46,874 nt of DNA from Escherichia phage SusanneMuster_Bas79, in the sequence record PQ850629.1. One strand, given 5' to 3'. Made by a program: the position numbers and the translations under genes. Positions 25,328 through 45,017 of the stretch are shown here, piece after piece. Numbering within the stretch: position 1 is the first letter of the stretch; each line of letters opens with the position of its first letter. The notes beneath the pieces are model-generated. The model saw only the letters and a list, made by a program, of their open reading frames with translations. It did no database searches and had not been told where the DNA came from.

Positions 25328-28268
25328 TGGCTGAAGAAGTCGGCGGAATTGTCTATGAAGTCGGGATGGATGTATCCGGACTTAAAGCTGGCACAAGTTC
25401 AGCGGAATCAGAATTATCAAAATTTGACTCCGCTGTAAGTGGCTCCACGAAGAATTTAAATAAACTTGATGGTCAGGCTGACTCAACTGGCAAGGCATTC
25501 TCCTCCCTTGTCTCCGTGGTTAAAAGCATTGATGCAACACTCAGCAAGATGGCAGCTTCCAGTGATGGTGCAGCAAGCGCTGTCAAGTCAACATCGCAAT
25601 CTGCTGAGTCAGCGAATCAGGTTATCGATGCATTAAATCAGCAACTTGCCATGATGCAGCAGCAACAGCAACAAGCCGCTGTATCAACAGGAAGGCTGGA
25701 AACCTCAATTAATGCCGTTACGACTGCTATTCGTGAGCTTGGAACATCAACTGGCGGCGCTGGCGCAAGCATATCTGGCACAGAAAGATTAATTGAAAGC
25801 CTCGGCAATCAGGTTGCCATTCTTGAAGAGCAAATGGAAAACGGCGCGAGAAGTGCGGCAATTCTTGCGGCGCAACTCAGAGCTGGAGATGGCGCAACTG
25901 ACGCGCAAAAGGCCAAGATTGCTGAGCTGACTGGTCGCCTGTACGACATGAAGAATGGCACAGAGTCGGCTGGCAAATCCACAAACGGATTCAGGAACGC
26001 GCTACAACAGGGCGGTTATCAGGTTCAGGACTTTATTGTTCAGGTTCAGAGTGGGCAGTCTGCTCTTGTTGCATTCAGTCAGCAGGGTTCGCAACTTGCA
26101 TCTGTATTCAGTCCGGTGGCTGGCGCAGTGTTAACGATAGCGACAGTTATCGCCGGCTCACTGATGGCCTCACTTAGTAACGGCAAGAATGCCATTAATG
26201 CCATGAAGGATGCCATATCTGCAATGGATCAGGTCATCAGTGTTTCCAGTAACGGCGTGGCAGCATACTCAGATAAGTTTGCAGCACTGGCAAAAGCCAA
26301 CACAACAGTTGCGACACTGATGCGCCAGCAAGCGCAACTTGAACTTTCAGCGGCTCTCTCTAAGGTATCGAAAGAAGTATCAAAAGCATCAGGTGAGTTC
26401 GTCACCTTTGGTGACAGACTTTTCGCATCTTTTGCTGGTGCAAACGTCAGCGTTAAATCATTCAACGATTACCTCTCAATGCTGAATATCACTACCAATG
26501 ATTTCAGCGAGGCAATGAAGCAGGCTGCATCTGCCGGACTTGCCGGGCAATCCACGATGAATAATATGATTGCCACCGTTGGCGCTCTGGCAAGTCGATT
26601 TGATTTGACCGACCAGCAAGCATTTGAATTTGCTAAACAACTCTCTGAAATCGCCAAAAACCCGAGCAATGAAAAACTTAATGCTTTAATTGTTACTCTG
26701 CAAAAGGTAGGTGAAGGACAGTCATCTGGCGCACAAAAGGCACGAGAATATGCTGCTCGTTTGCTGGAAATTGCCACCACAACAACTGACGCAACAATGC
26801 GCCTGAAAGCTCTTAAGGAGATGACTGACTCCTTAACGTCAAGTCAGGACAAGGCATTGCAAACTGCTCGTCAGACACTGTTTATTGAGAAGCAAACTGG
26901 CGATGAAAAACTAAAAGCTCAGGCATGGCGTGATGCGGAGGCTCAGGGATTAAAGCAGAATACCGCTGCGTTTCGTGAATATTACAATGTCAGACTTGAG
27001 ACGTACCGTCAGCAGGAAAAAAACGCTCAGGCAGCAAAAGATGAACGTAATGCAAACAACCAGCTAAAAACTGAATTAAAGCAACAGGAAACAATCCAGC
27101 AGAAATTAAATAAACTGCGGCAGGAAGCTCTACTTGCTGGTCAGGCAGAATCCACAAAAGAACTATCCCGCGAGCAAGCCATTCTCAACGCGCAGCAATC
27201 GCTTGGCAAAGCTGCCACTCAGGAGCAAATAAAACTGGCTGGTGAGTACGCTGCGAAGATTTGGGACCAGAAGAATGCACTGAAGGAACAGGCGGAAGCG
27301 GAGAAAGAAAAGCAGCGGGTAGAAAAATCATATCAGGGATTACGTGCCATTGCGTCACCAACGACTGGCATTGACAGCGAATACCAGCAACGCATGGCTG
27401 ACCTTGATGCTTATGCTGCTGCGTACCCACAGAAAATTACAGAGATTGAACAGACTCGCGCGTCCATTGAAGCACAATACCGCCAGCAGAGAATGGATGC
27501 TATGTGGGCTGAATGGCAGCAACAAAGCCTCGGAGCGCAACTGTTTGGCACCGCGCTGGATTCTGCAATGAGCACGGCATCAAACAGCATCACCGGATTG
27601 CTGACAGGTACAATGAGCGTTCAGGATGCCATGCGCAGTCTCGGCTCTACAGTGCTTAACTCGCTGGTAAATAGCTTCGTCGAGATGGGCGTGCAGTGGG
27701 TAAAATCTGCCGTTATGGGACAGACTGCACAGGTTACGGCTACGGCAACCACAACGGCTGCGCAAACGGCAGGACTGGCAACTACAACAGCAGCATCCAC
27801 TGCGGCGGCAGCCACCACCACGGCAGCGTGGACTCCGGCAGCAATCGTCGCATCAATCGGTTCATTCGGCGGCGCTGCTGCAATTGGGGTAGGCGCTGTT
27901 CTTGGGGCGCTGGCGATGGGTATCGCTGGCAAGCGAAAAAATGGTGGTCCTGTTAGCGCCGGAAGTATGTACGAAGTGGGCGAAAATGGCTTACCTGAGA
28001 TATTCCAGGCATCCAACGGTCGCCAGTACATGATTCCCGGAAATGACGGTTCAGTTATCAGCAACAAAGACCTGACAGGCGGCAGCGGTGGCGTCGTGGT
28101 TTATAATAGCATCATCAATAACAGCTCAGCGCAGGTTAGCAGCAGCGCCAGAGATAATGGTGATGGCAGCGTAACAGTTGAGACGATTGTGAGTGATATT
28201 GAGAACAACGGCGCGATAGGGCAGGCTATTTCAAGAAATTACTCAACAAACCGGAGAGCAACAGAATA

Positions 28269-38335: not shown

Positions 38336-38776
38336 TCAATCTACATCATTCAGCAAGCCAAAATAGAAAAGTGTGGCTCTTTTTAGTTCATCAAGACCGT
38401 AAGCAATGGCGGCATAATGACCAAGTCTGCACATCTCAGTTAACACAGCCGATTGCTCCTTGCTCACTCTGCTTTTGCTTTTATCGCGGCGCTTTGACTC
38501 AATCATCCCGCAACTGTGATTCGCACCCGGCGTCATTATCACGTTGTCGCCTATTCCAGGCTTAACCCCCATCTTCTGGCGCTTCAGTACGAACTGGACG
38601 CGGCTGGATGTTCCTGTTTCATTCGGGACGTGAAACCATAGCACATCAGGGAAACAGTGTTGCATCCATGTTCCATAACCCATCTGGTCAGTCTCCTCTT
38701 TTGGGCATTCGCCGCGATAACCGCTATCAAATACCCATATACCGCTATCAAGCTGCTTCACTTTGTTCTCCTGCAA
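38336..38776 (-). CDS. VRR-NUC domain nuclease
   Basis: 146 aa; WFHVPNE...GVKPGIGD...MIESKRR pattern consistent with VRR-NUC; overlaps helicase gene end. Confidence 0.6.
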   Translation of the reverse strand: MQENKVKQLDSGIWVFDSGYRGECPKEETDQMGYGTWMQHCFPDVLWFHVPNETGTSSRVQFVLKRQKMGVKPGIGDNVIMTPGANHSCGMIESKRRDKSKSRVSKEQSAVLTEMCRLGHYAAIAYGLDELKRATLFYFGLLNDVD

Positions 38777-40685
38777 AATCTTTTCTATGGATTATGTCGC
38801 GACCTTTATCATTAATGCGATGAGTGATGCGTTTTGGCGCTTTAATCAATCCAGCATACATCATGAACTGCTTAGCATTCTGGCATTTCAGGATTTTCCC
38901 CGCCATTGACTTATCATCAAGGTGAGGAAAAATAGCCTTTGCCTTGAACATGTTTTTCATGTGAGTCGCACCGCCATATGGGTAGAAAACTTCGTTAGCC
39001 CAGCCTTCTTTGCCATCACAACGATTAATCCAGTAGCGATACAAAATACCTTCTCCATCCTTTGTTAGCTGGACTTTGAAATCAATAACATCAGCCCACT
39101 CATTATCGGTATACGCACGCTCATTCAGTGCCGCATTCGGGTCGCGCAACACGTGATCGCAATGCCGGCAATAGCGCGCCGTTGGGTCGTTTTTAGTGCC
39201 GCATCCATCATCAAAAATCCGTATTCCGTGCTTATCAAAACCGCAACGAATATAACTGAAAAACTCCTCGCAGCGACCATCTGGCGACAATGCATCTTTG
39301 CCAATGCATCGACGCGCATATGGGCTGTTCATTGTTCCACATGTATGACACGGAACTTGTTCGCCACTGCGTTTTGAACGTTGCGCTTCAGCTTCTTCCA
39401 GAATTGGGTCTTCATATAGCTGACCAAGCTCAAACATCGTGCCTGAGAAATCAAGAACCAGATGGTTTTCTTTATGATACCCGGCGTCAATTTGGTCTTT
39501 CTTCAGCAGTCGCATTCCGCGACCAAGCAACTGAACAAGAAGGGTGAGCGACATTATTTTTCGCAATATAACGCTTGTATCCCATAGCGGGATGTTTACG
39601 CCGGTCGTCAAGCAACCAATTTGGAAAACATATTTAATCTTGCCAGTGTATGCATCCTTTAATGCCTTGCGTCTGGCTTTCTGTCCCATATCTTCGGTGA
39701 CGATCGCATAACTTCCTTCAGGTAGGTATTTTGCCGCCTCCTGACAGTGCTTCTTGCCAGCGCATGTAATCAATACGCCGTTTCTGTTTTTTGTCAGCTC
39801 CATAACCTTGAGCATGATTTTCTGCGTGAGTGTTCCTTGCTCAAGGATTTCTTTCTGCATCTGCTTGAGTTGCTCGGTGGTAAATTCCTGAACTCCATCA
39901 CTTCCTGACGCCTCAAATGCTGACAGGTCGTAATGCAGATCATCAATATCATGAAGACCAAAAATTGTAGGGACAAGAAAGCCATTATCAACAAGGTATT
40001 TGGTATCAATATTTATTATTTCATGCTTCCAGTAAGAACCCTTAATTGACTCAGTTCCACGAAATGGGCTGCCAGTGTAGCCAATAACAATGACATCGTG
40101 TCCGTATTTAGCTTTGCACCTACGGTTAAATTCGGTCATTATTACGCCGTACTGTGTGTCTGAATCTTCTCCAACAATATCCTCCCAGTTCACTTGATGG
40201 CACTCATCAACCAAAATATATCGTGGGCAAAAGTCTGAAAGTGCACACTTTGAGATAACATTGCCTGATTCATCCTTTATGTCGAAAAGTGAGTTTTTTA
40301 TTGTTCTCTCCGTCCCAGCAATAAGCGGGTATGCCGTTGACTTTCTGCCAAGAGACGCGCTGAAAAGTGAGTTTTTAACACTCAGATTCCATAGCTCTTC
40401 CGCATCCTGCTCAATAATTTCCCCCTGTCTGGCAATAACAAGGCCTTCCCACCCCATATCCTGAAAGCGTCGCGCAATCATGGCAATCATAATGGTCTTT
40501 CCAGCACCTACAGATGCCGTCACAAAACTTGGCTTAGGGTCTTTGCCAAACTTGCGGATAACTTCAGCCGTCTTTTCATAAACCAGCCACTGATATGGTC
40601 GCGGCTCAATCTCACCCGTATGAACAACTGACCGCAATTTGTCTATATCCAATTCAGCAATCATTGCGTCTATTTTATGCGTCAT
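38748..40685 (-). CDS. SF2 DNA helicase (DEAD/DEAH-box type) with C-terminal zinc-ribbon region
   Basis: Walker A ASVGAGKT, motif II LVDECHQ, C-terminal Cys clusters (CHTCG...C, C-x2-C). Confidence 0.8.
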   Translation of the reverse strand: MTHKIDAMIAELDIDKLRSVVHTGEIEPRPYQWLVYEKTAEVIRKFGKDPKPSFVTASVGAGKTIMIAMIARRFQDMGWEGLVIARQGEIIEQDAEELWNLSVKNSLFSASLGRKSTAYPLIAGTERTIKNSLFDIKDESGNVISKCALSDFCPRYILVDECHQVNWEDIVGEDSDTQYGVIMTEFNRRCKAKYGHDVIVIGYTGSPFRGTESIKGSYWKHEIINIDTKYLVDNGFLVPTIFGLHDIDDLHYDLSAFEASGSDGVQEFTTEQLKQMQKEILEQGTLTQKIMLKVMELTKNRNGVLITCAGKKHCQEAAKYLPEGSYAIVTEDMGQKARRKALKDAYTGKIKYVFQIGCLTTGVNIPLWDTSVILRKIMSLTLLVQLLGRGMRLLKKDQIDAGYHKENHLVLDFSGTMFELGQLYEDPILEEAEAQRSKRSGEQVPCHTCGTMNSPYARRCIGKDALSPDGRCEEFFSYIRCGFDKHGIRIFDDGCGTKNDPTARYCRHCDHVLRDPNAALNERAYTDNEWADVIDFKVQLTKDGEGILYRYWINRCDGKEGWANEVFYPYGGATHMKNMFKAKAIFPHLDDKSMAGKILKCQNAKQFMMYAGLIKAPKRITHRINDKGRDIIHRKDFAGEQSEAA

Positions 40686-40760
40686 AGCTACTAACCTTTG
40701 TTGATGTTTCTACGTCAGTTAGCTTATACTCAATCTACACCAACAATCAAGGGTCAATTT
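40686..40760. promoter_or_regulatory. divergent promoter region between helicase and primase
   Basis: TTGATG -35 (40701-40706), box TTTCTACGTCAG (40707-40718), TATACT -10 (40725-40730), box CAATCTACACCAAC (40731-40744). Confidence 0.45.
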
Positions 40761-41714
40761 ATGAGATATGACTGGAAGGAAATCGAGCCAAAAATGATCG
40801 GCAACTGGCAGGCTGCCATCATGTCTATCGTCAATGTGGATAGCAGAGTTTTCAATGGCAAGCACCAGCCATGCCCTCATTGCATGGGGGTTGACCGGTT
40901 CCGTTGGGATAATCACTTCGAAACAAAAGGCGATGGCGGCGCAATCTGCAATCAGTGCGGTTCCGGCAGCGGCATGAATTGGCTGATGAAACTCTCCGGA
41001 ATGAGCTTTCCTGAAGCACTGGAGGCGCTTGGTGGATTCCTGAACATGCACCCGCGTGAAAAGCTGGAGGCAATCAGGAAAGAGCTACCGAAGATAAATC
41101 ACAGCGATGACTTCATCACCGAGCAGGAAGTCGCAGCAATCATGGCTAAAACGACTCGTGTCGCGATGAATGAGTGGACTTTGATAAATGGTATTGGTTG
41201 CGACGTTAACGTCACCAGAGGCAAATCTGGAGAACTTATTGCGGTTGAGATGATGCGAGCTGACACAATGAAACTGTGCAACGTGGCATTCATTGGCATG
41301 GATGGTGATTCAATCAGAACGTTTTTCCGCGCAGGATACAACAAGGACTCAGCCATCAACGGCAAACTCACGCGCGGCGCGATAAGCCCAATCGGAGAAG
41401 ACAACGGGAAGTTCATTTACCTGGTATCTGATTATGCCGATGCGTGGAAGTGCCATTACTTCACTGGCGCGCATGTCTGGTGCTGCTGGTCGCCGGAAAA
41501 CATGTGGGAAGTAATGCGCTCTGTTAGCGATGAAACGAAGGCGAGGTTGCGCTGCATAGTTAATTATAAATTCGACGAACTGTGTGCAGCAGAAAACGCA
41601 GGGATTCCGGTGATGCTTCCTGATGATGCCGACACTATCAGGATGGCAAAGAGAATCAGGAGAAAGATTTATGACGCTGGCGAGTTGATAGAGAAAATGT
41701 CAGTTAGAAGATAA
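40761..41714 (+). CDS. DNA primase (zinc-ribbon type)
   Basis: C-x2-C ... C-x2-C zinc-binding region (CPHCMG...CNQCG) near N-terminus; divergent from helicase; ORF track start 40698 is upstream of RBS/ATG 40761. Confidence 0.55.
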   Translation: MRYDWKEIEPKMIGNWQAAIMSIVNVDSRVFNGKHQPCPHCMGVDRFRWDNHFETKGDGGAICNQCGSGSGMNWLMKLSGMSFPEALEALGGFLNMHPREKLEAIRKELPKINHSDDFITEQEVAAIMAKTTRVAMNEWTLINGIGCDVNVTRGKSGELIAVEMMRADTMKLCNVAFIGMDGDSIRTFFRAGYNKDSAINGKLTRGAISPIGEDNGKFIYLVSDYADAWKCHYFTGAHVWCCWSPENMWEVMRSVSDETKARLRCIVNYKFDELCAAENAGIPVMLPDDADTIRMAKRIRRKIYDAGELIEKMSVRR

Positions 41715-41715
41715 A

Positions 41716-41745
41716 AGAAACCCTCCGACTGGAGGGTTTTTGTTA
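41716..41745. terminator. bidirectional rho-independent terminator
   Basis: AAACCCTCC-GACT-GGAGGGTTTTTGTT. Confidence 0.65.
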
Positions 41746-42048
41746 TGCTTTGATGTTAACTTTTATTGCGAACACTTCCACCGGGTCAGGACCGAAATGT
41801 GGGTGGGTGATGGTCTTAACCGTCCATCCATCGTATGGGATATCAATACGCCTGGATTTATCGTCCTTCTTTGGATATCCTTTTGTGATAATTAACCTTT
41901 CGTACTTCCTTCCAATCTGTCCGCTATCTTTAAAGTTAATAAGGCGCTTCTTCCAGTAGTCATTAAAAAGGCGATACTCTTCCGTTTTATCTCCGCGAAT
42001 CATGGCATCGAAGTATTCACCTTTGACGGCAAGTTGCAGGTTAGCCAT
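41743..42048 (-). CDS. ASCH/PUA-like domain protein (putative)
   Basis: MANLQLAVKGEYFDAMIRGDKTEEYR resembles the N-terminal motif of ASCH/DUF3850-type proteins; ATG at 42048. Confidence 0.45.
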   Translation of the reverse strand: MANLQLAVKGEYFDAMIRGDKTEEYRLFNDYWKKRLINFKDSGQIGRKYERLIITKGYPKKDDKSRRIDIPYDGWTVKTITHPHFGPDPVEVFAIKVNIKA

Positions 42049-42304
42049 TATTTCCCTCCAGAATCCAAACTGAATTACCAATACGACTGTTATTTAAATC
42101 CTTTGACACGCGGCCATCCTTACAAAGAGAAATCAGAACCTTCCGTAACTTCGCTGCTGTCCATTCATCATCAGGAAATTCATTCACCATTGATAGACGC
42201 AAACTCCACGTAGCCACTGAGAACTTACGAAAAATTCCAAGTTTCTCCTCCTCAATGGATTTTCTCTTTCTCATCACATATAAAACCTTATCCTTCACAT
42301 CCAT
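42041..42304 (-). CDS. hypothetical protein (87 aa)
   Basis: ORF track entry. Confidence 0.35.
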   Translation of the reverse strand: MDVKDKVLYVMRKRKSIEEEKLGIFRKFSVATWSLRLSMVNEFPDDEWTAAKLRKVLISLCKDGRVSKDLNNSRIGNSVWILEGNNG

Positions 42305-42314
42305 TTCCTTACCC

Positions 42315-42506
42315 TCACTTAATCATCATCTTTGAAATATCAACGTGACCAACACAAAATCTGTGCCAGTAATCATCAAGCATGTGGTAATTAGAGCGAA
42401 TCCATACTTTGTTAATCCGGCTCCAGAAAAACCACGTCGAATAACCATGCGGCCTGAAATGCCATAAACCTTCTGAGCGACAAATTTCGCCTGATATTGT
42501 TCTCAT
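42315..42506 (-). CDS. hypothetical protein (63 aa)
   Basis: ORF track entry, Trp-rich. Confidence 0.3.
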   Translation of the reverse strand: MRTISGEICRSEGLWHFRPHGYSTWFFWSRINKVWIRSNYHMLDDYWHRFCVGHVDISKMMIK

Positions 42507-44059
42507 TTCAACCTCGGATTTATGTGAACAGTATTCCCGATAAATACGCAGTAACCATCCTCTTCAAGTGATGGCAATACACTTGACCTGAGTCGGTCAT
42601 AAATTTTAGGTATCCCTTTGAATGGTCGTACGTTTTTAAGTGAATCATAAAGCCACTTCACCGTTACGTTTGTTTTTCCTTTCTGAGCGGCAGAGCGTAG
42701 CTTTTCGGCAACAACATCAAATTCAGAACGCTCACCAGCATATCCATTTGATTCCACGGCGTCGGTGAATGTTTTTGTTAGTGCGTCATAAACACTGATG
42801 GCGCGACTAATTTCATTTTCACCGATAATCTTTGATTGCTTTCCTCCATCACACCAGTTTTCAGCAGCGTGAAATATTGCTGCCAGACGTATTATTTGCT
42901 TATCAGCTTTACCCATCGCGCCACGAAGAAGGACGTGATCCCACTTACCGCCGGGAAGGAAGTTTTTCTCCCACTGATTTCGTAACAGGCCAATCATTCT
43001 TGCTGAGTCATTGTGAAGCGTCAGTTTTGTTTTTTCTGCTGACACAACATTATGTATAAATCTTGCATATTCCGACCTCAAGCTATCTGGCATTGGCTTG
43101 CTTACAGGGCAATCATTAACCATGTCCCAGTGTTCGCGATAGCCAAGCATTGATTGCTCTCGCAACATCAGGAAACGTTCAGAAAGACCGTTCCCCCTGT
43201 CGCCAGCGGCAAGAATGGCATCAATACTTTCATCCTGCGCAATCACACTTATGTTTCCAAGCACGTAACCAGATGAAACGCCACGACCAACACGAGCAGA
43301 ACCAATGAATCCGCCATCCCAGCCCTTCAGGATGACTTCGGCGTTTGCCTTTCCACCTTCTTTTCCGTAAGAGAGGCCAAGACATGTGTTAAGGACGCTT
43401 GCCTCGTCACTTATCAGATTAAAAAAACCACCTTCATGAATGGCCTGATGCTGGACAGCCTCCGGAGTTGCGTCCGTCAGTGGATATGTGATCGTATAAA
43501 GCTCCTCCAGCTTCTCCTTTTCGCGAGCAATATCATCGCCGATTAGTGCCTTTGCATTCTGATTACTGGCCTCTTTGTATGCCTTCATCAACTCTTCAAT
43601 GCGAAGATTTATTTTTATGATCTGCTTTTCCATCTTTTTGGAAAGGTTGTCATATTCAATCTTCACCGGATTCATGTGCATTGAGTTGATGGCAGTTTTC
43701 CCTGCTGATGGAGGCTGAGAAGTAACCACGTAAAGAGAAACTGGAAGCTCTGAATGGTAATACTCAACGCTAAAGTTTCTCGTCATTGCGCTGGCAACGC
43801 ACCCAAGTAAATGCATGAACGATGTATTTATTGGGAACTGAACAGCACGAGCTGCAGCGATTGCATAACGAGACAGCAAATCTGTTCTGTGCTCACTGGT
43901 CAGTTCTGTTTCTGAGTACGTTACATCACGCTCCTTACCTTCCTTGATATCCAGCCACATATTTGAGCTTGGTGTCATGCCATGATGGAAGGCGACGCGA
44001 GCAGGAGATACTTTCAATTCCCTTGCTTCGTTGAAGATATCTTGAGCTGTGATCATCAT
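42503..44059 (-). CDS. large replication-module protein, possible origin-associated initiator/ATPase
   Basis: 518 aa; P-loop-like PPSAGKT; located next to the iteron-flanked AT-rich region; family not confidently recognised. Confidence 0.4.
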   Translation of the reverse strand: MMITAQDIFNEARELKVSPARVAFHHGMTPSSNMWLDIKEGKERDVTYSETELTSEHRTDLLSRYAIAAARAVQFPINTSFMHLLGCVASAMTRNFSVEYYHSELPVSLYVVTSQPPSAGKTAINSMHMNPVKIEYDNLSKKMEKQIIKINLRIEELMKAYKEASNQNAKALIGDDIAREKEKLEELYTITYPLTDATPEAVQHQAIHEGGFFNLISDEASVLNTCLGLSYGKEGGKANAEVILKGWDGGFIGSARVGRGVSSGYVLGNISVIAQDESIDAILAAGDRGNGLSERFLMLREQSMLGYREHWDMVNDCPVSKPMPDSLRSEYARFIHNVVSAEKTKLTLHNDSARMIGLLRNQWEKNFLPGGKWDHVLLRGAMGKADKQIIRLAAIFHAAENWCDGGKQSKIIGENEISRAISVYDALTKTFTDAVESNGYAGERSEFDVVAEKLRSAAQKGKTNVTVKWLYDSLKNVRPFKGIPKIYDRLRSSVLPSLEEDGYCVFIGNTVHINPRLK

Positions 44060-44295
44060 GAAATCCTTTTTACGTAAACCATATCTTTGTCAGGGTATCC
44101 AACCTTTGTTGAGAATTTCATGCCTTCATTCCTGCGCATGAAATAGTTTAATGCGTTCCTCAGGCTTGCAATACCTCCAAACCTCTTCGAGTCAATCATC
44201 ACAGTCTCCCCTACTGAAACCGCCGACAACCCAGAAAGAGCTGCATTCTTTTTGCCATACTTATCAAGTTTCACAAAATCCTCCAACAGCAACAA
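44056..44295 (-). CDS. hypothetical small protein (start uncertain; track start is TTG)
   Basis: ORF adjacent to iteron region. Confidence 0.35.
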   Translation of the reverse strand: MLLLEDFVKLDKYGKKNAALSGLSAVSVGETVMIDSKRFGGIASLRNALNYFMRRNEGMKFSTKVGYPDKDMVYVKRIS

Positions 44296-44348
44296 ATTAT
44301 GATTGAATCATATCATAAGTATTGAATCATGCAACATCAAATACGACT

Positions 44349-44663
44349 CACGTGGGTAACGTGGGGCAGCCGTGGGGAACATCACCTTCCCCACGAACTT
44401 TTACTCTAAGTATATGTAATATAATATAATTATTATTATTTGGGTTAATGGGTAATATTATTATTCATATTATAGATAGTAATTAACATAATATTAACAA
44501 ATGGATTATTTGAATATATTTATAAGGGGATGGGTATGAAATCTGCCCCTTTTTACCCACGAAAAATAAAAACATTCAAATCAATAATTTACGATGAAAA
44601 ACGTGGGGCAACCAACCTTCCCCACGACCTGCCCCACGAGCAAAAATTTACCCCACGGGCACG
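44349..44663. repeat. iteron-flanked AT-rich region (candidate replication origin / control region)
   Basis: about 9 copies of CCCCACG / CGTGGGG (4 left, 5 right, both orientations) flanking a roughly 120-bp strongly AT-rich core (44400-44520). Confidence 0.6.
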
Positions 44664-44680
44664 TTTTTAACGCATCCCTG

Positions 44681-44711
44681 TTGACGTAGAATCATCGTTG
44701 ATGTAGATTGA
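44681..44711 (+). promoter_or_regulatory. promoter for rightward early genes built from two reversed conserved boxes
   Basis: TTGACGTAGAAT (44681-44692) supplies -35 TTGACG; TGATGTAGATTG (44699-44710) supplies -10 TAGATT with 17-bp spacing; GAGGGTGAAGAG before ATG 44740. Confidence 0.45.
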
Positions 44712-44739
44712 ACTCATCGAAACAAACGAGGGTGAAGAG

Positions 44740-44925
44740 ATGAACAAAGAAAGCACGTACAGCATCGACCAGATGAAGTTGTTCAGCGATATATGCATGG
44801 CATTGTCACAACAGGTTCCAAGTCTACCTGCTGATATGCGCTCAAATGCCATCATTGATGCGGCAAACATGATTTGTGAGGCATATGCTATGACTGAAGA
44901 TGAATATAAGGCATCGAAGAAATGA
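44740..44925 (+). CDS. hypothetical protein (61 aa)
   Basis: ORF track entry with RBS. Confidence 0.4.
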   Translation: MNKESTYSIDQMKLFSDICMALSQQVPSLPADMRSNAIIDAANMICEAYAMTEDEYKASKK

Positions 44926-45017
44926 CAGGCGCATCATTCGAGCTTATCTCCAGTCTGGTTATCGTGGCATTCATCATTATCGCAGTGGCGGTTTCTAAAT
45001 CAGGGTATAAGGAGTAA
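44922..45017 (+). CDS. tiny hydrophobic peptide (31 aa)
   Basis: hand-translated MTGASFELISSLVIVAFIIIAVAVSKSGYKE; ATGA overlap with upstream stop. Confidence 0.25.
   Translation: MTGASFELISSLVIVAFIIIAVAVSKSGYKE

What the first reader, a model, noticed from the sequence alone, without database searches (positions are those of the whole stretch)
42503..44295. Unrecognised 518-aa protein and small partner adjacent to the iteron region
The large protein has a P-loop-like PPSAGKT but I cannot assign it to a known initiator, helicase-loader or primase family from the sequence. Its position immediately beside the iterons makes it the prime candidate for an origin-binding initiator of an unusual type.
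Basis: inference. Interest (0 to 1): 0.4.

Follow-up and report, generated by a model that had tools for sequence, protein, structure and literature searches.

The report
MCM-like phage helicase beside its origin
The "unrecognised" 518-residue protein belongs to a known family of phage replication helicases (DUF3987, distantly related to MCM). It sits beside a real, conserved origin-like DNA region that it may recognise itself, so the finding is sound but largely ordinary.

Summary
ORFs 42503-44059(-) and 44056-44295(-) exist, PPSAGKT is the Walker A motif (residues 116-122), and a real repeat and AT-rich module lies next door at 44351-44657.

DUF3987 proteins are published as divergent SF6 replicative helicases that pair with primases, and a Zn-ribbon primase lies 0.8 kb away.

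The neighbouring module carries opposed CCCCACG repeats on both sides of the most AT-rich stretch of the genome. It travels with the helicase gene in relatives down to 39% identity, even where gene order differs. This layout matches the origins of SaPI Rep self-loading helicases, so an initiator role is plausible (about 0.5) but untested.

The small partner is a swappable cassette, not an obligate cofactor. It is a 72-aa winged-helix-like protein in some phages, an AP2-like protein in others, and a pseudogene in Vi II-E1.

Verdict: new member of a known kind, modest interest.

The parts
42503..44059 (-). DUF3987-family, MCM-like AAA+ helicase (518 aa, or 517 from the second ATG). Walker A is G120-K121-T122 and Walker B is D218-E219. 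Q275 is sensor-1-like, and R295 in 'SERF' is Arg-finger-like. Residues 123-185 form a long helical hairpin, and residues ~443-513 form a C-terminal winged helix.
44056..44274 (-). Small upstream gene (72 aa from GTG 44274; the maximal ORF runs to 44295). It is predicted to be winged-helix-like. It belongs to an ORFan family confined to this phage group and occupies a swappable cassette position.
44302..44340 (-). Leftward promoter-like site (-35 TTGATG at 44340-44335, -10 TATGAT at 44317-44312). Two ATTGAATCAT direct repeats (44302-44311 and 44321-44330) overlap it and are a candidate operator of the type-A cassette.
   Evidence: consensus match only
44351..44395 (.). Left repeat cluster: CGTGGGT, CGTGGGG and CGTGGGG at 9-11 bp spacing, plus an inverted copy CCCCACG. 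The inverted copy forms a 9-bp-stem palindrome at 44371-44395.
44396..44542 (.). AT-rich core and candidate DNA-unwinding element, 85% AT. It has a central TGGGTTAATGGGTAAT pair (44441-44456). It is 80% identical to Vibrio phage pYD38-A, whereas third codon positions of the adjacent helicase gene are 49% identical.
44543..44657 (.). Right repeat cluster: inner degenerate copies (TGCCCC...ACCCACG, 44543-44561), a palindrome at 44602-44626, then CCCCACG at 44632 and 44651. The copies point in the opposite direction to the left cluster.
44681..44709 (+). Rightward promoter-like site (TTGACG-17-TAGATT) driving the + strand early genes. It is conserved in all close relatives.
40698..41714 (+). Stand-alone primase with a Zn-ribbon of the primase-helicase type, matching PHROG 510 'DNA primase'. 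It is annotated from 40728 in Bas78 and is the presumed partner of the helicase.
41743..42506 (-). Three small genes downstream of the helicase in the same leftward transcription unit: 63 aa, 87 aa (phrog_2814) and 112 aa (phrog_625, annotated ASCH in relatives). Their presence varies between relatives.

Best explanation
The 518-aa protein is the phage's replicative helicase, a member of the DUF3987 family of divergent MCM-like (SF6, AAA+) helicases found on phages and mobile elements.

Shown here:
- Family membership.
- An intact ATPase motif set.
- An MCM-like core fold with a C-terminal winged-helix domain.
- Genomic pairing with a Zn-ribbon primase.
- No DNA polymerase is annotated in the near-identical Bas78 genome. 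SSB, an exonuclease VIII-type nuclease, a RusA-like resolvase and an SNF2-like helicase are present. That the host polymerase does the synthesis is my inference from this.

Inferred (about 0.5): the helicase loads itself. Its winged helix binds the CCCCA(CG) repeats that flank the AT-rich core at 44351-44657. One ring assembles on each side in opposite orientation and the AT-rich DNA melts. The two outward-facing promoters may help by leaving negative supercoils between them. The primase then primes. This is how SaPI Rep helicases work.

The small upstream protein is most likely a cassette-specific DNA-binding regulator of the leftward operon, not a helicase cofactor.
For: Family membership:
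- Pfam DUF3987, E=9.7e-35, 120.8 bits against a cut-off of 27, residues 79-429.
- PHROG 2373 'DNA helicase', E=2.6e-194.
- 100% identity to Bas78_0081 'DNA helicase'.

ATPase motifs: K121, E219, Q275 and R295 are invariant in 53 homologues.

Fold:
- The AF2 model has pLDDT 90.8.
- The C-terminus matches winged-helix domains. Foldseek agrees.

Literature:
- DUF3987 proteins are SF6 helicases with a C-terminal wHTH that pair with primases; phage N4 dns is essential (PMC4889955).
- A PriCT-DUF3987 protein is an ATP-dependent helicase that binds its primase (PMC11724360).

Primase link: a primase gene lies next to or near the helicase gene in every relative examined. P0065 carries the Pfam families PF13148, PF13155 and PF13362 in one 830-aa protein. 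I recall the last two as Toprim families, which would make it a Toprim-DUF3987 fusion.

Origin module:
- It is statistically exceptional.
- The same layout of opposed G-rich and C-rich repeats flanking an AT-rich core lies next to the helicase operon at 90, 89, 86, 62, 61 and 39% identity. Repeat words there include CCCCAG/CCCCAA, ACCCCA and ATCCCA.
- In Pectobacterium phage Ymer (49%), a TCCCCACGGT cluster lies about 1.7 kb upstream at the contig end.
- At 42% and 39% identity, where gene order is primase then helicase, the module lies downstream of the helicase gene.
- The AT-rich core is far better conserved than synonymous sites in the helicase gene: 80% against 49%.

The SaPI Rep precedent has the same layout: a C-terminal WHD binds 5-6-nt iterons on both sides of an AT-rich region, pointing in opposite directions (PMC9371898).
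Against: - There is no binding, melting or origin-mapping evidence. The module also sits exactly upstream of two divergent promoter-like sites, so the repeats could be transcription-factor sites.
- Other DNA-binding candidates are encoded next door: the winged-helix-like 72-aa protein, or an AP2-like protein in relatives.
- T1-like phages carry a 35%-identical helicase without a CCCCA cluster next to the gene (Tls and Rogue1).
- Substitutions between helicases whose repeats end in CCCCACG and those ending in CCCCAG/CCCCAA are densest in the N-terminal 60 residues (27%). The winged helix shows 13%. Repeat words also vary within a single phage (L016), so no clean co-variation could be shown.
- The protein lacks the MCM N-terminal OB/Zn domain.
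- The one characterised DUF3987 helicase moved 5' to 3', unlike MCM and SaPI Rep.
Confidence: 0.6

Rival explanations
1. The protein is only the fork helicase. A different protein reads the CCCCACG repeats and recruits or loads the helicase at the AT-rich region. Candidates are the adjacent small winged-helix-like or AP2-like cassette protein, another early phage protein, or a host factor such as DnaA.
For: - The alternative cassette protein is weakly AP2-like, E=7e-4.
- Most cellular replicative helicases need separate initiators and loaders (established knowledge).
- TTCCCCACG matches the DnaA-box consensus TTATCCACA at 6 of 9 positions. This is my own comparison and a lead only.
Against: - The small genes are not conserved. 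Type A, type B and a pseudogene occur with the same CGTGGGG repeats and with helicases at least 98.5% identical.
- The small genes of L013, L014 and Ymer are unrelated to either type.
- In L018 and L019 only the primase and helicase genes stay linked to the module.
- Repeat words such as CCCCAA and ATCCCA in relatives move away from the DnaA box.
Confidence: 0.25
2. The repeat and AT-rich region is not an origin. It is the control region of two divergent early promoters, with activator or repressor sites and UP-like AT-rich DNA. Replication starts elsewhere or by recombination, and the helicase merely lies next to its own promoter.
For: - Both repeat clusters lie 11-24 bp upstream of the -35 hexamers of outward-facing promoter-like sites.
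- The region is where the transcription direction flips, which alone could explain the cumulative GC-skew minimum at 44-45 kb.
- The phage encodes recombination proteins: exonuclease VIII, SSB and RusA.
Against: - In L018 the module lies immediately downstream of the helicase gene, and in L019 about 1 kb downstream. In neither is it a divergent promoter region for that gene.
- The symmetric layout of opposed repeats around an 85% AT core with strongly conserved sequence is the classic origin layout (SaPI ori).
- The two roles do not exclude each other.
Confidence: 0.12
3. The protein is a non-replicative P-loop ATPase, for example in packaging, defence or anti-defence.
For: Pfam formally lists DUF3987 as a domain of unknown function. 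NCBIfam has no model for the protein.
Against: - The MCM-like fold, the complete AAA+ motif set and the linkage to a primase argue against it.
- Helicase activity has been published for a family member, and phage N4 dns is essential for replication.
- The terminase is encoded elsewhere in the genome.
Confidence: 0.03

Closest known systems
DUF3987 (PF13148) helicases of phages and mobile elements, e.g. phage N4 dns, E. coli CP4-57 YfjI, T1-like 'yfiJ' and AgaPH
   Same: The Pfam match is significant across the whole domain. Walker A and B motifs are present, there is a C-terminal winged helix, and the gene pairs with a primase. Homologues of about 35% identity occur throughout the T1-like phages.
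   Different: Here the helicase stands alone, with no AEP, PriCT or Toprim domain fused to it. The primase is a separate DnaG/P4-alpha-type gene on the opposite strand. No origin or iteron link has been described for the family in the 13 papers of the searchable library that mention DUF3987.
Archaeal and eukaryotic MCM (SF6, pre-sensor II insert clade of AAA+)
   Different: Sequence identity is only 9-14%, with no Pfam MCM hit and no sequence-level PDB hit. There is no N-terminal OB/Zn collar domain. A roughly 60-residue helical hairpin is inserted after the P-loop helix. The polarity of this protein is unknown; the one characterised DUF3987 helicase moved 5' to 3'.
SaPI Rep self-loading initiator helicases (Rep1, PriRep5, SaPIbov1 Rep) and SCCmec Cch/Cch2
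   Different: They belong to different Pfam families (DUF927, D5/Primase_Cterm). The SaPI ori lies immediately downstream of rep, whereas here it lies upstream between divergent promoters (it is downstream only in the distant relatives L018 and L019). The host element is a lytic siphovirus of Enterobacteria, not a satellite. DNA binding by this protein is untested.
Iteron-plasmid initiators (RepE, pi, RepA)
   Different: No two-winged-helix Rep protein is encoded here. The repeats are 7 bp long and arranged in opposed clusters, not 17-22-bp direct repeats. The small protein is dispensable or replaceable.

Membership tests
DUF3987 (PF13148) | Pfam HMM score above the gathering threshold over the full domain | tested here: met
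   120.8 bits against a cut-off of 27, E=9.7e-35, profile positions 6-356 of 364
DUF3987 (PF13148) | Conserved Walker A (GxxxxGKT/S) and Walker B (DExx) motifs | tested here: met
   PPSAGKT at 116-122 and ISDEAS at 216-221. K121 and E219 are invariant in 53 homologues. The motifs are as described in PMC11724360.
DUF3987 (PF13148) | [quoted passage not shown] | tested here: met
DUF3987 (PF13148) | Association with an AEP or DnaG-type primase, fused or adjacent | tested here: met
   A Zn_Ribbon_Prim primase lies at 40698-41714. It is directly adjacent in L013, L018 and L019. P0065 carries PF13148, PF13155 and PF13362 in one protein.
DUF3987 (PF13148) | ATP-dependent DNA helicase activity | not testable with these tools
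   Shown only for the distant member AgaPH.
MCM / SF6 AAA+ helicases | AAA+ core fold closest to MCM | tested here: met
MCM / SF6 AAA+ helicases | Sequence-level membership (Pfam MCM PF00493) | tested here: not met
   No MCM family appears at E<=0.1. There are no PDB sequence hits with a single sequence or with a profile. The literature reports the link only by HHsearch.
MCM / SF6 AAA+ helicases | N-terminal OB-fold and Zn collar domain | tested here: not met
   Residues 1-95 of the model are short helices plus a low-confidence linker, with no beta-barrel.
MCM / SF6 AAA+ helicases | Trans-acting arginine finger in an SRF-type motif | tested here: inconclusive
   An invariant R295 lies in 'SERF'. 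Equivalence to the MCM SRFD motif rests on my reading of the motif, not on a residue-level superposition.
SaPI-Rep-type self-loading initiator helicases | Origin made of short iterons on both sides of an AT-rich region, pointing in opposite directions | tested here: met
   Copies at 44351, 44360 and 44371 lie on one strand. Copies at 44620, 44632 and 44651 lie on the other. An 85% AT core lies between them. The definition is from PMC9371898.
SaPI-Rep-type self-loading initiator helicases | Origin immediately downstream of the helicase ORF | tested here: not met
   In the window the module lies upstream of the small gene and helicase operon. It is immediately downstream only in L018, and about 1 kb downstream in L019.
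SaPI-Rep-type self-loading initiator helicases | The winged-helix CTD binds the iterons specifically, and the origin melts without a loader | not testable with these tools
   Only indirect evidence exists: conserved linkage of the module to the helicase gene.
SF3 (P4 alpha / D5) or SF4 (DnaB / T7 gp4) primase-helicases | Family HMM match or closest fold | tested here: not met
Helicase loader or obligate cofactor (role proposed for the small partner) | Conserved co-occurrence with the helicase | tested here: not met
   Two unrelated small genes alternate at this position, and the gene is a pseudogene in Vi II-E1. Other unrelated small genes occupy it in L013, L014 and Ymer. No relatives of the 72-aa protein outside the phage group were found among 1.8 billion representatives.

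The most novel reading that the evidence does not exclude
A strictly lytic enterobacterial siphovirus (Skatevirus and its relatives Roufvirus, Macdonaldcampvirus, Deseoctovirus and Shuimuvirus) starts replication with a self-loading, MCM-like DUF3987 helicase. The helicase reads opposed CCCCA-type 7-mers around an AT-rich element placed between divergent early promoters. If true, this would be the first initiator and origin pair defined for this large phage group. It would also be the first origin-recognition role assigned to the DUF3987 family, extending the SaPI-Rep mechanism to Gram-negative lytic phages.
Probability: 0.45. Interest if true: 0.45.

Novelty: new member of a known kind. Interest (0 to 1): 0.3.

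Why it matters
The protein needs no new category. It is already annotated as a DNA helicase and belongs to a family found in over a thousand phage genomes.

The part worth keeping is the conserved link between this helicase and a symmetric repeat and AT-rich module. That link gives a concrete, testable origin and initiator prediction for a phage group now in the BASEL collection. It also suggests that DUF3987 helicases may be self-loading initiators like SaPI Rep. No DUF3987 structure has been solved, and no origin has been described for the family in the papers I could search.

Tried and rejected
- **PDB sequence searches.** A single-sequence search and a profile search returned only coiled-coil noise. 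The MCM link is visible only at the fold level.
- **NCBIfam.** No model matched the helicase, the primase or the small protein.
- **Rfam on 44000-45000.** Only sub-threshold snoRNA noise appeared, so no known RNA lies in the intergenic region.
- **Small partner.** Pfam, PHROGs and NCBIfam gave no hit. An HMM search of 1.8 billion representatives returned only the protein itself plus a spurious repeat match in an LRR/Ig surface protein, P0076. I rejected the helicase-loader or obligate-cofactor idea because the slot holds unrelated genes or a pseudogene in near-identical phages.
- **Co-variation test.** I compared helicases whose repeats end in CCCCACG with those ending in CCCCAG/CCCCAA. Fixed differences are spread out and densest in residues 1-60 and 324-352. 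Six of the 10 C-terminal differences fall in helix 3 or the wing, which is not significant. Repeat words also vary within one phage (L016), so the test is uninformative.
- **IMG/VR scan for the palindrome CGTGGGGNA-N5-11-TNCCCCACG.** Of 73 loci, 12 are close relatives with the helicase 311-567 bp away. The other 61 are isolated matches with no high-copy repeat cluster combined with a strongly AT-rich core. No independent occurrence of the module was found.
- **Terminator reading of the two palindromes.** The T-runs face inward into the AT-rich core and nothing is transcribed towards them, so I rejected this reading.
- **Packaging-site reading.** The terminase genes lie about 3.5 kb away across the circular map. 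I did not pursue this further.
- **T1-like phages.** No CCCCA cluster lies next to the homologous gene in Tls or Rogue1.
- **Pickard 2008 Vi II-E1 paper.** It could not be retrieved.

Full report
**What is there**

The window is a near-complete genome of a small lytic siphovirus. Positions 41700-45000 are 99.8% identical to Escherichia phage SandraMuster_Bas78. The BASEL paper places that phage in Skatevirus (PMC11990801). Close relatives include Salmonella phages Vi II-E1 and IME207, Escherichia phage C1 and Shigella phage DS8.

The ORF list confirms a 518-aa ORF at 42503..44059(-) and a 79-aa ORF at 44056..44295(-). The two overlap by ATGA. GenBank starts the large gene at the second ATG, giving 517 aa. 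The small gene most likely starts at GTG 44274, 4 nt after GGAGGA, giving 72 aa. All database homologues are also 72 aa. PPSAGKT lies at residues 116-122.

**Identity of the large protein**

- Pfam DUF3987 (PF13148): E=9.7e-35, 120.8 bits against a cut-off of 27, residues 79-429.
- PHROG 2373 "DNA helicase": E=2.6e-194, full length.
- The C-terminal 75 residues also match phrog_7327.

A tblastn search finds homologues in 1162 phage records. These include T1-like phages at about 35% identity, such as Tls "yfiJ putative ATPase" and Rogue1 "DNA helicase". In an alignment of 53 homologues the invariant residues include K121 (Walker A), E219 (Walker B), Q275 and R295, the last within "SERF".

An AlphaFold2 model built on that alignment is confident, with pLDDT 90.8 and pTM 0.86. 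It shows:
- a short helical N-terminus;
- an AAA+ core with a roughly 60-residue helical hairpin after the P-loop helix;
- a lid domain;
- a C-terminal H-E-H-H-E-E winged helix.

This matches the literature. Kazlauskas et al. classed DUF3987 as divergent SF6 helicases with a C-terminal wHTH, usually fused or adjacent to AEP or DnaG primases. They cite phage N4 dns as essential for replication (PMC4889955). A PriCT-DUF3987 protein was shown to be an ATP-dependent 5'-to-3' helicase that binds its primase (PMC11724360).

**Replication context**

A stand-alone primase with the primase-helicase type of zinc ribbon lies at 40698-41714(+). An SNF2/ResIII helicase lies at 38748-40685(-). The Bas78 annotation lists SSB, exonuclease VIII, a RusA-like resolvase and no DNA polymerase. 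In relatives the primase is directly adjacent to the helicase (L013, L018 and L019). One homologue, P0065, carries PF13148, PF13155 and PF13362 in a single 830-aa protein. I recall the last two as Toprim families, which would make it a Toprim-DUF3987 fusion.

**The neighbouring DNA module**

The 44296-44740 intergenic region separates leftward from rightward genes.
- All seven exact CCCCACG sites of the window lie in 44360-44657. With the CCCACG variants there are nine copies.
- The left cluster (44351-44395) has three direct copies on one strand at 9-11 bp spacing. An inverted copy adds a 9-bp-stem palindrome.
- The right cluster (44543-44657) mirrors the left on the other strand.
- Between them lies the most AT-rich 120 bp of the genome, at 85% against 72% for the next.
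- Outward-facing promoter-like sites flank the clusters.
- No Rfam family matches.

**The module travels with the helicase gene**

The same layout appears next to the helicase operon in relatives at 90, 89, 86, 62, 61 and 39% helicase identity. It consists of G-rich repeats, an AT-rich core with a central repeat pair, then C-rich repeats. Only the repeat word drifts:

| Relative | Repeat word |
|---|---|
| pYD38-A, KpV2811 | CTGGGG/CCCCAA |
| L014, L017 | TGGGGT/ACCCCA |
| Ymer | TCCCCACGGT x4 in 10-bp phase |
| L013 | TGGGAT/ATCCC in ~10-bp phase |

In Ymer (49% identity) the cluster lies about 1.7 kb upstream of the helicase gene, at the end of the contig.

In L018 (42%) and L019 (39%) the gene order is primase then helicase, and the module lies downstream of the helicase gene.

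Between the window and Vibrio phage pYD38-A, the AT-rich core is 80% identical and the right repeats 75% identical. Third codon positions of the adjacent helicase gene are only 49% identical. The non-coding module is therefore under selection.

T1-like phages lack the module next to the gene.

**Mechanism**

This layout is the published architecture of SaPI origins. There, the C-terminal WHD of the Rep helicase binds 5-6-nt iterons on both sides of an AT-rich region, pointing in opposite directions, and the helicase loads itself (PMC9371898; Cch2 in PMC7581432).

By analogy I propose that the DUF3987 helicase binds the CCCCA repeats through its winged helix and assembles one ring on each side. 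It then melts the AT-rich core and recruits the primase. This step is inferred, not shown.

My attempt at a co-variation test was uninformative. The repeats could equally serve another DNA-binding protein or act in transcription control. The fact that only the helicase and primase stay linked to the module across contexts favours the helicase as the binder. I put that at about 0.5.

**The small partner**

It is not a conserved partner. Phages with helicases at least 98.5% identical and the same CGTGGGG repeats carry one of the following at this position:
- the 72-aa protein (window, ST1UNAM, C1, KpV2811, L015, L016);
- an unrelated 85-90-aa AP2-like protein (IME207, DS8, pYD38-A);
- a pseudogene (Vi II-E1).

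More distant relatives have other unrelated small genes there.

The 72-aa protein has no relatives outside the group. It is predicted at moderate confidence to be winged-helix-like.

It travels with its own promoter segment. That segment carries two ATTGAATCAT repeats overlapping the -10 and spacer of the leftward promoter-like site. I read the protein as a cassette-specific regulator of the leftward operon, with low confidence of about 0.35.

**Verdict**

It is wrong that the protein is unassignable or unusual. This is a new member of a known kind. The useful residue is a testable origin and initiator prediction.

Noticed in passing
window 44056-44350; L009 3859-4250; L010 3056-3440; L002 5239-5600: The small gene upstream of the helicase and its promoter segment form a swappable cassette. 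Type A is the 72-aa winged-helix-like protein with ATTGAATCAT x2. Type B is an 85-90-aa AP2-like protein with a different upstream sequence. Both occur in phages whose flanking helicase and origin-like core are nearly identical. In Vi II-E1 the gene is annotated as a pseudogene.
   Followed up: partly
window 40685-40698, compared with L001 2216-2989 (Bas78_0076) and L002 913-1917 (Vi II-E1 'phage endonuclease'): The window has no gene between the SNF2-like helicase and the primase. Bas78 carries a 774-bp gene there, and Vi II-E1 carries a 1005-bp 'endonuclease' gene. This looks like a presence/absence polymorphism of a mobile endonuclease. The window is nevertheless 378 bp longer than Bas78, so it must carry insertions elsewhere.
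   Followed up: no
L020 (Rogue1) 26500-26900: The T1-like phage Rogue1 has its own 589-bp divergent intergenic region ahead of the pRha, exonuclease, Erf and SSB genes. It carries repeated GTATAC(G)/ATACGC words around an AT-rich stretch, GTATTATTATTATTATATATGTTACTATGTATACC. That stretch resembles the (ATT)n plus TATATGTA core of the window module. It may be the T1-group equivalent, with different repeats and not adjacent to the helicase gene.
   Followed up: no
window 44396-44470; L005 5945-6020; L018 4270-4390; L019 4930-5040: The AT-rich cores share sequence features even when the helicases are only 39-42% identical. These are a TATGTA/TATATGTA element and a run of ATT or AGT triplets, such as ATTATTATTATT or AGTAGTAGTAGTA. 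A central pair of repeat-like words splits the core.
   Followed up: partly
window 44322-44429 and 44530-44670 (+): Bas78 annotates two short hypothetical genes, Bas78_0083 and 0084, inside the repeat and AT-rich module. The 46-aa ORF at 44530-44670 runs through the right repeat cluster. These are probably spurious gene calls.
   Followed up: no
window 41716-41741: An 11-bp-stem GC-rich hairpin with T-runs on both strands lies between the convergent primase (+) gene and the 112-aa ASCH-like (-) gene. It is a likely bidirectional terminator.
   Followed up: no
window 41743-42304: A megablast search of 41700-45000 hit 343 phage records, including about 90 Stx-converting phages and many Salmonella phages. 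Some annotations call the 87-aa gene 'EaA protein' and the 112-aa gene 'ASCH domain'. I suspect these small genes downstream of the helicase are shared with lambdoid prophages, but I did not check which part of the query the hits cover.
   Followed up: no
helicase residues 123-185 (window ~43505-43693): The model shows a long antiparallel helical hairpin that continues directly from the Walker A helix (helices 121-163 and 167-185, pLDDT >90). MCM has no such insertion. The hairpin lies within the Pfam DUF3987 match, so it seems to be a family feature of unknown role.
   Followed up: no
window 38748-40685 (-): The 645-aa ResIII/Helicase_C (SF2, SNF2-like) helicase carries two or three C-terminal zinc-ribbon motifs. 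It is conserved next to the primase and helicase in relatives. Bas78 annotates it only as hypothetical.
   Followed up: no
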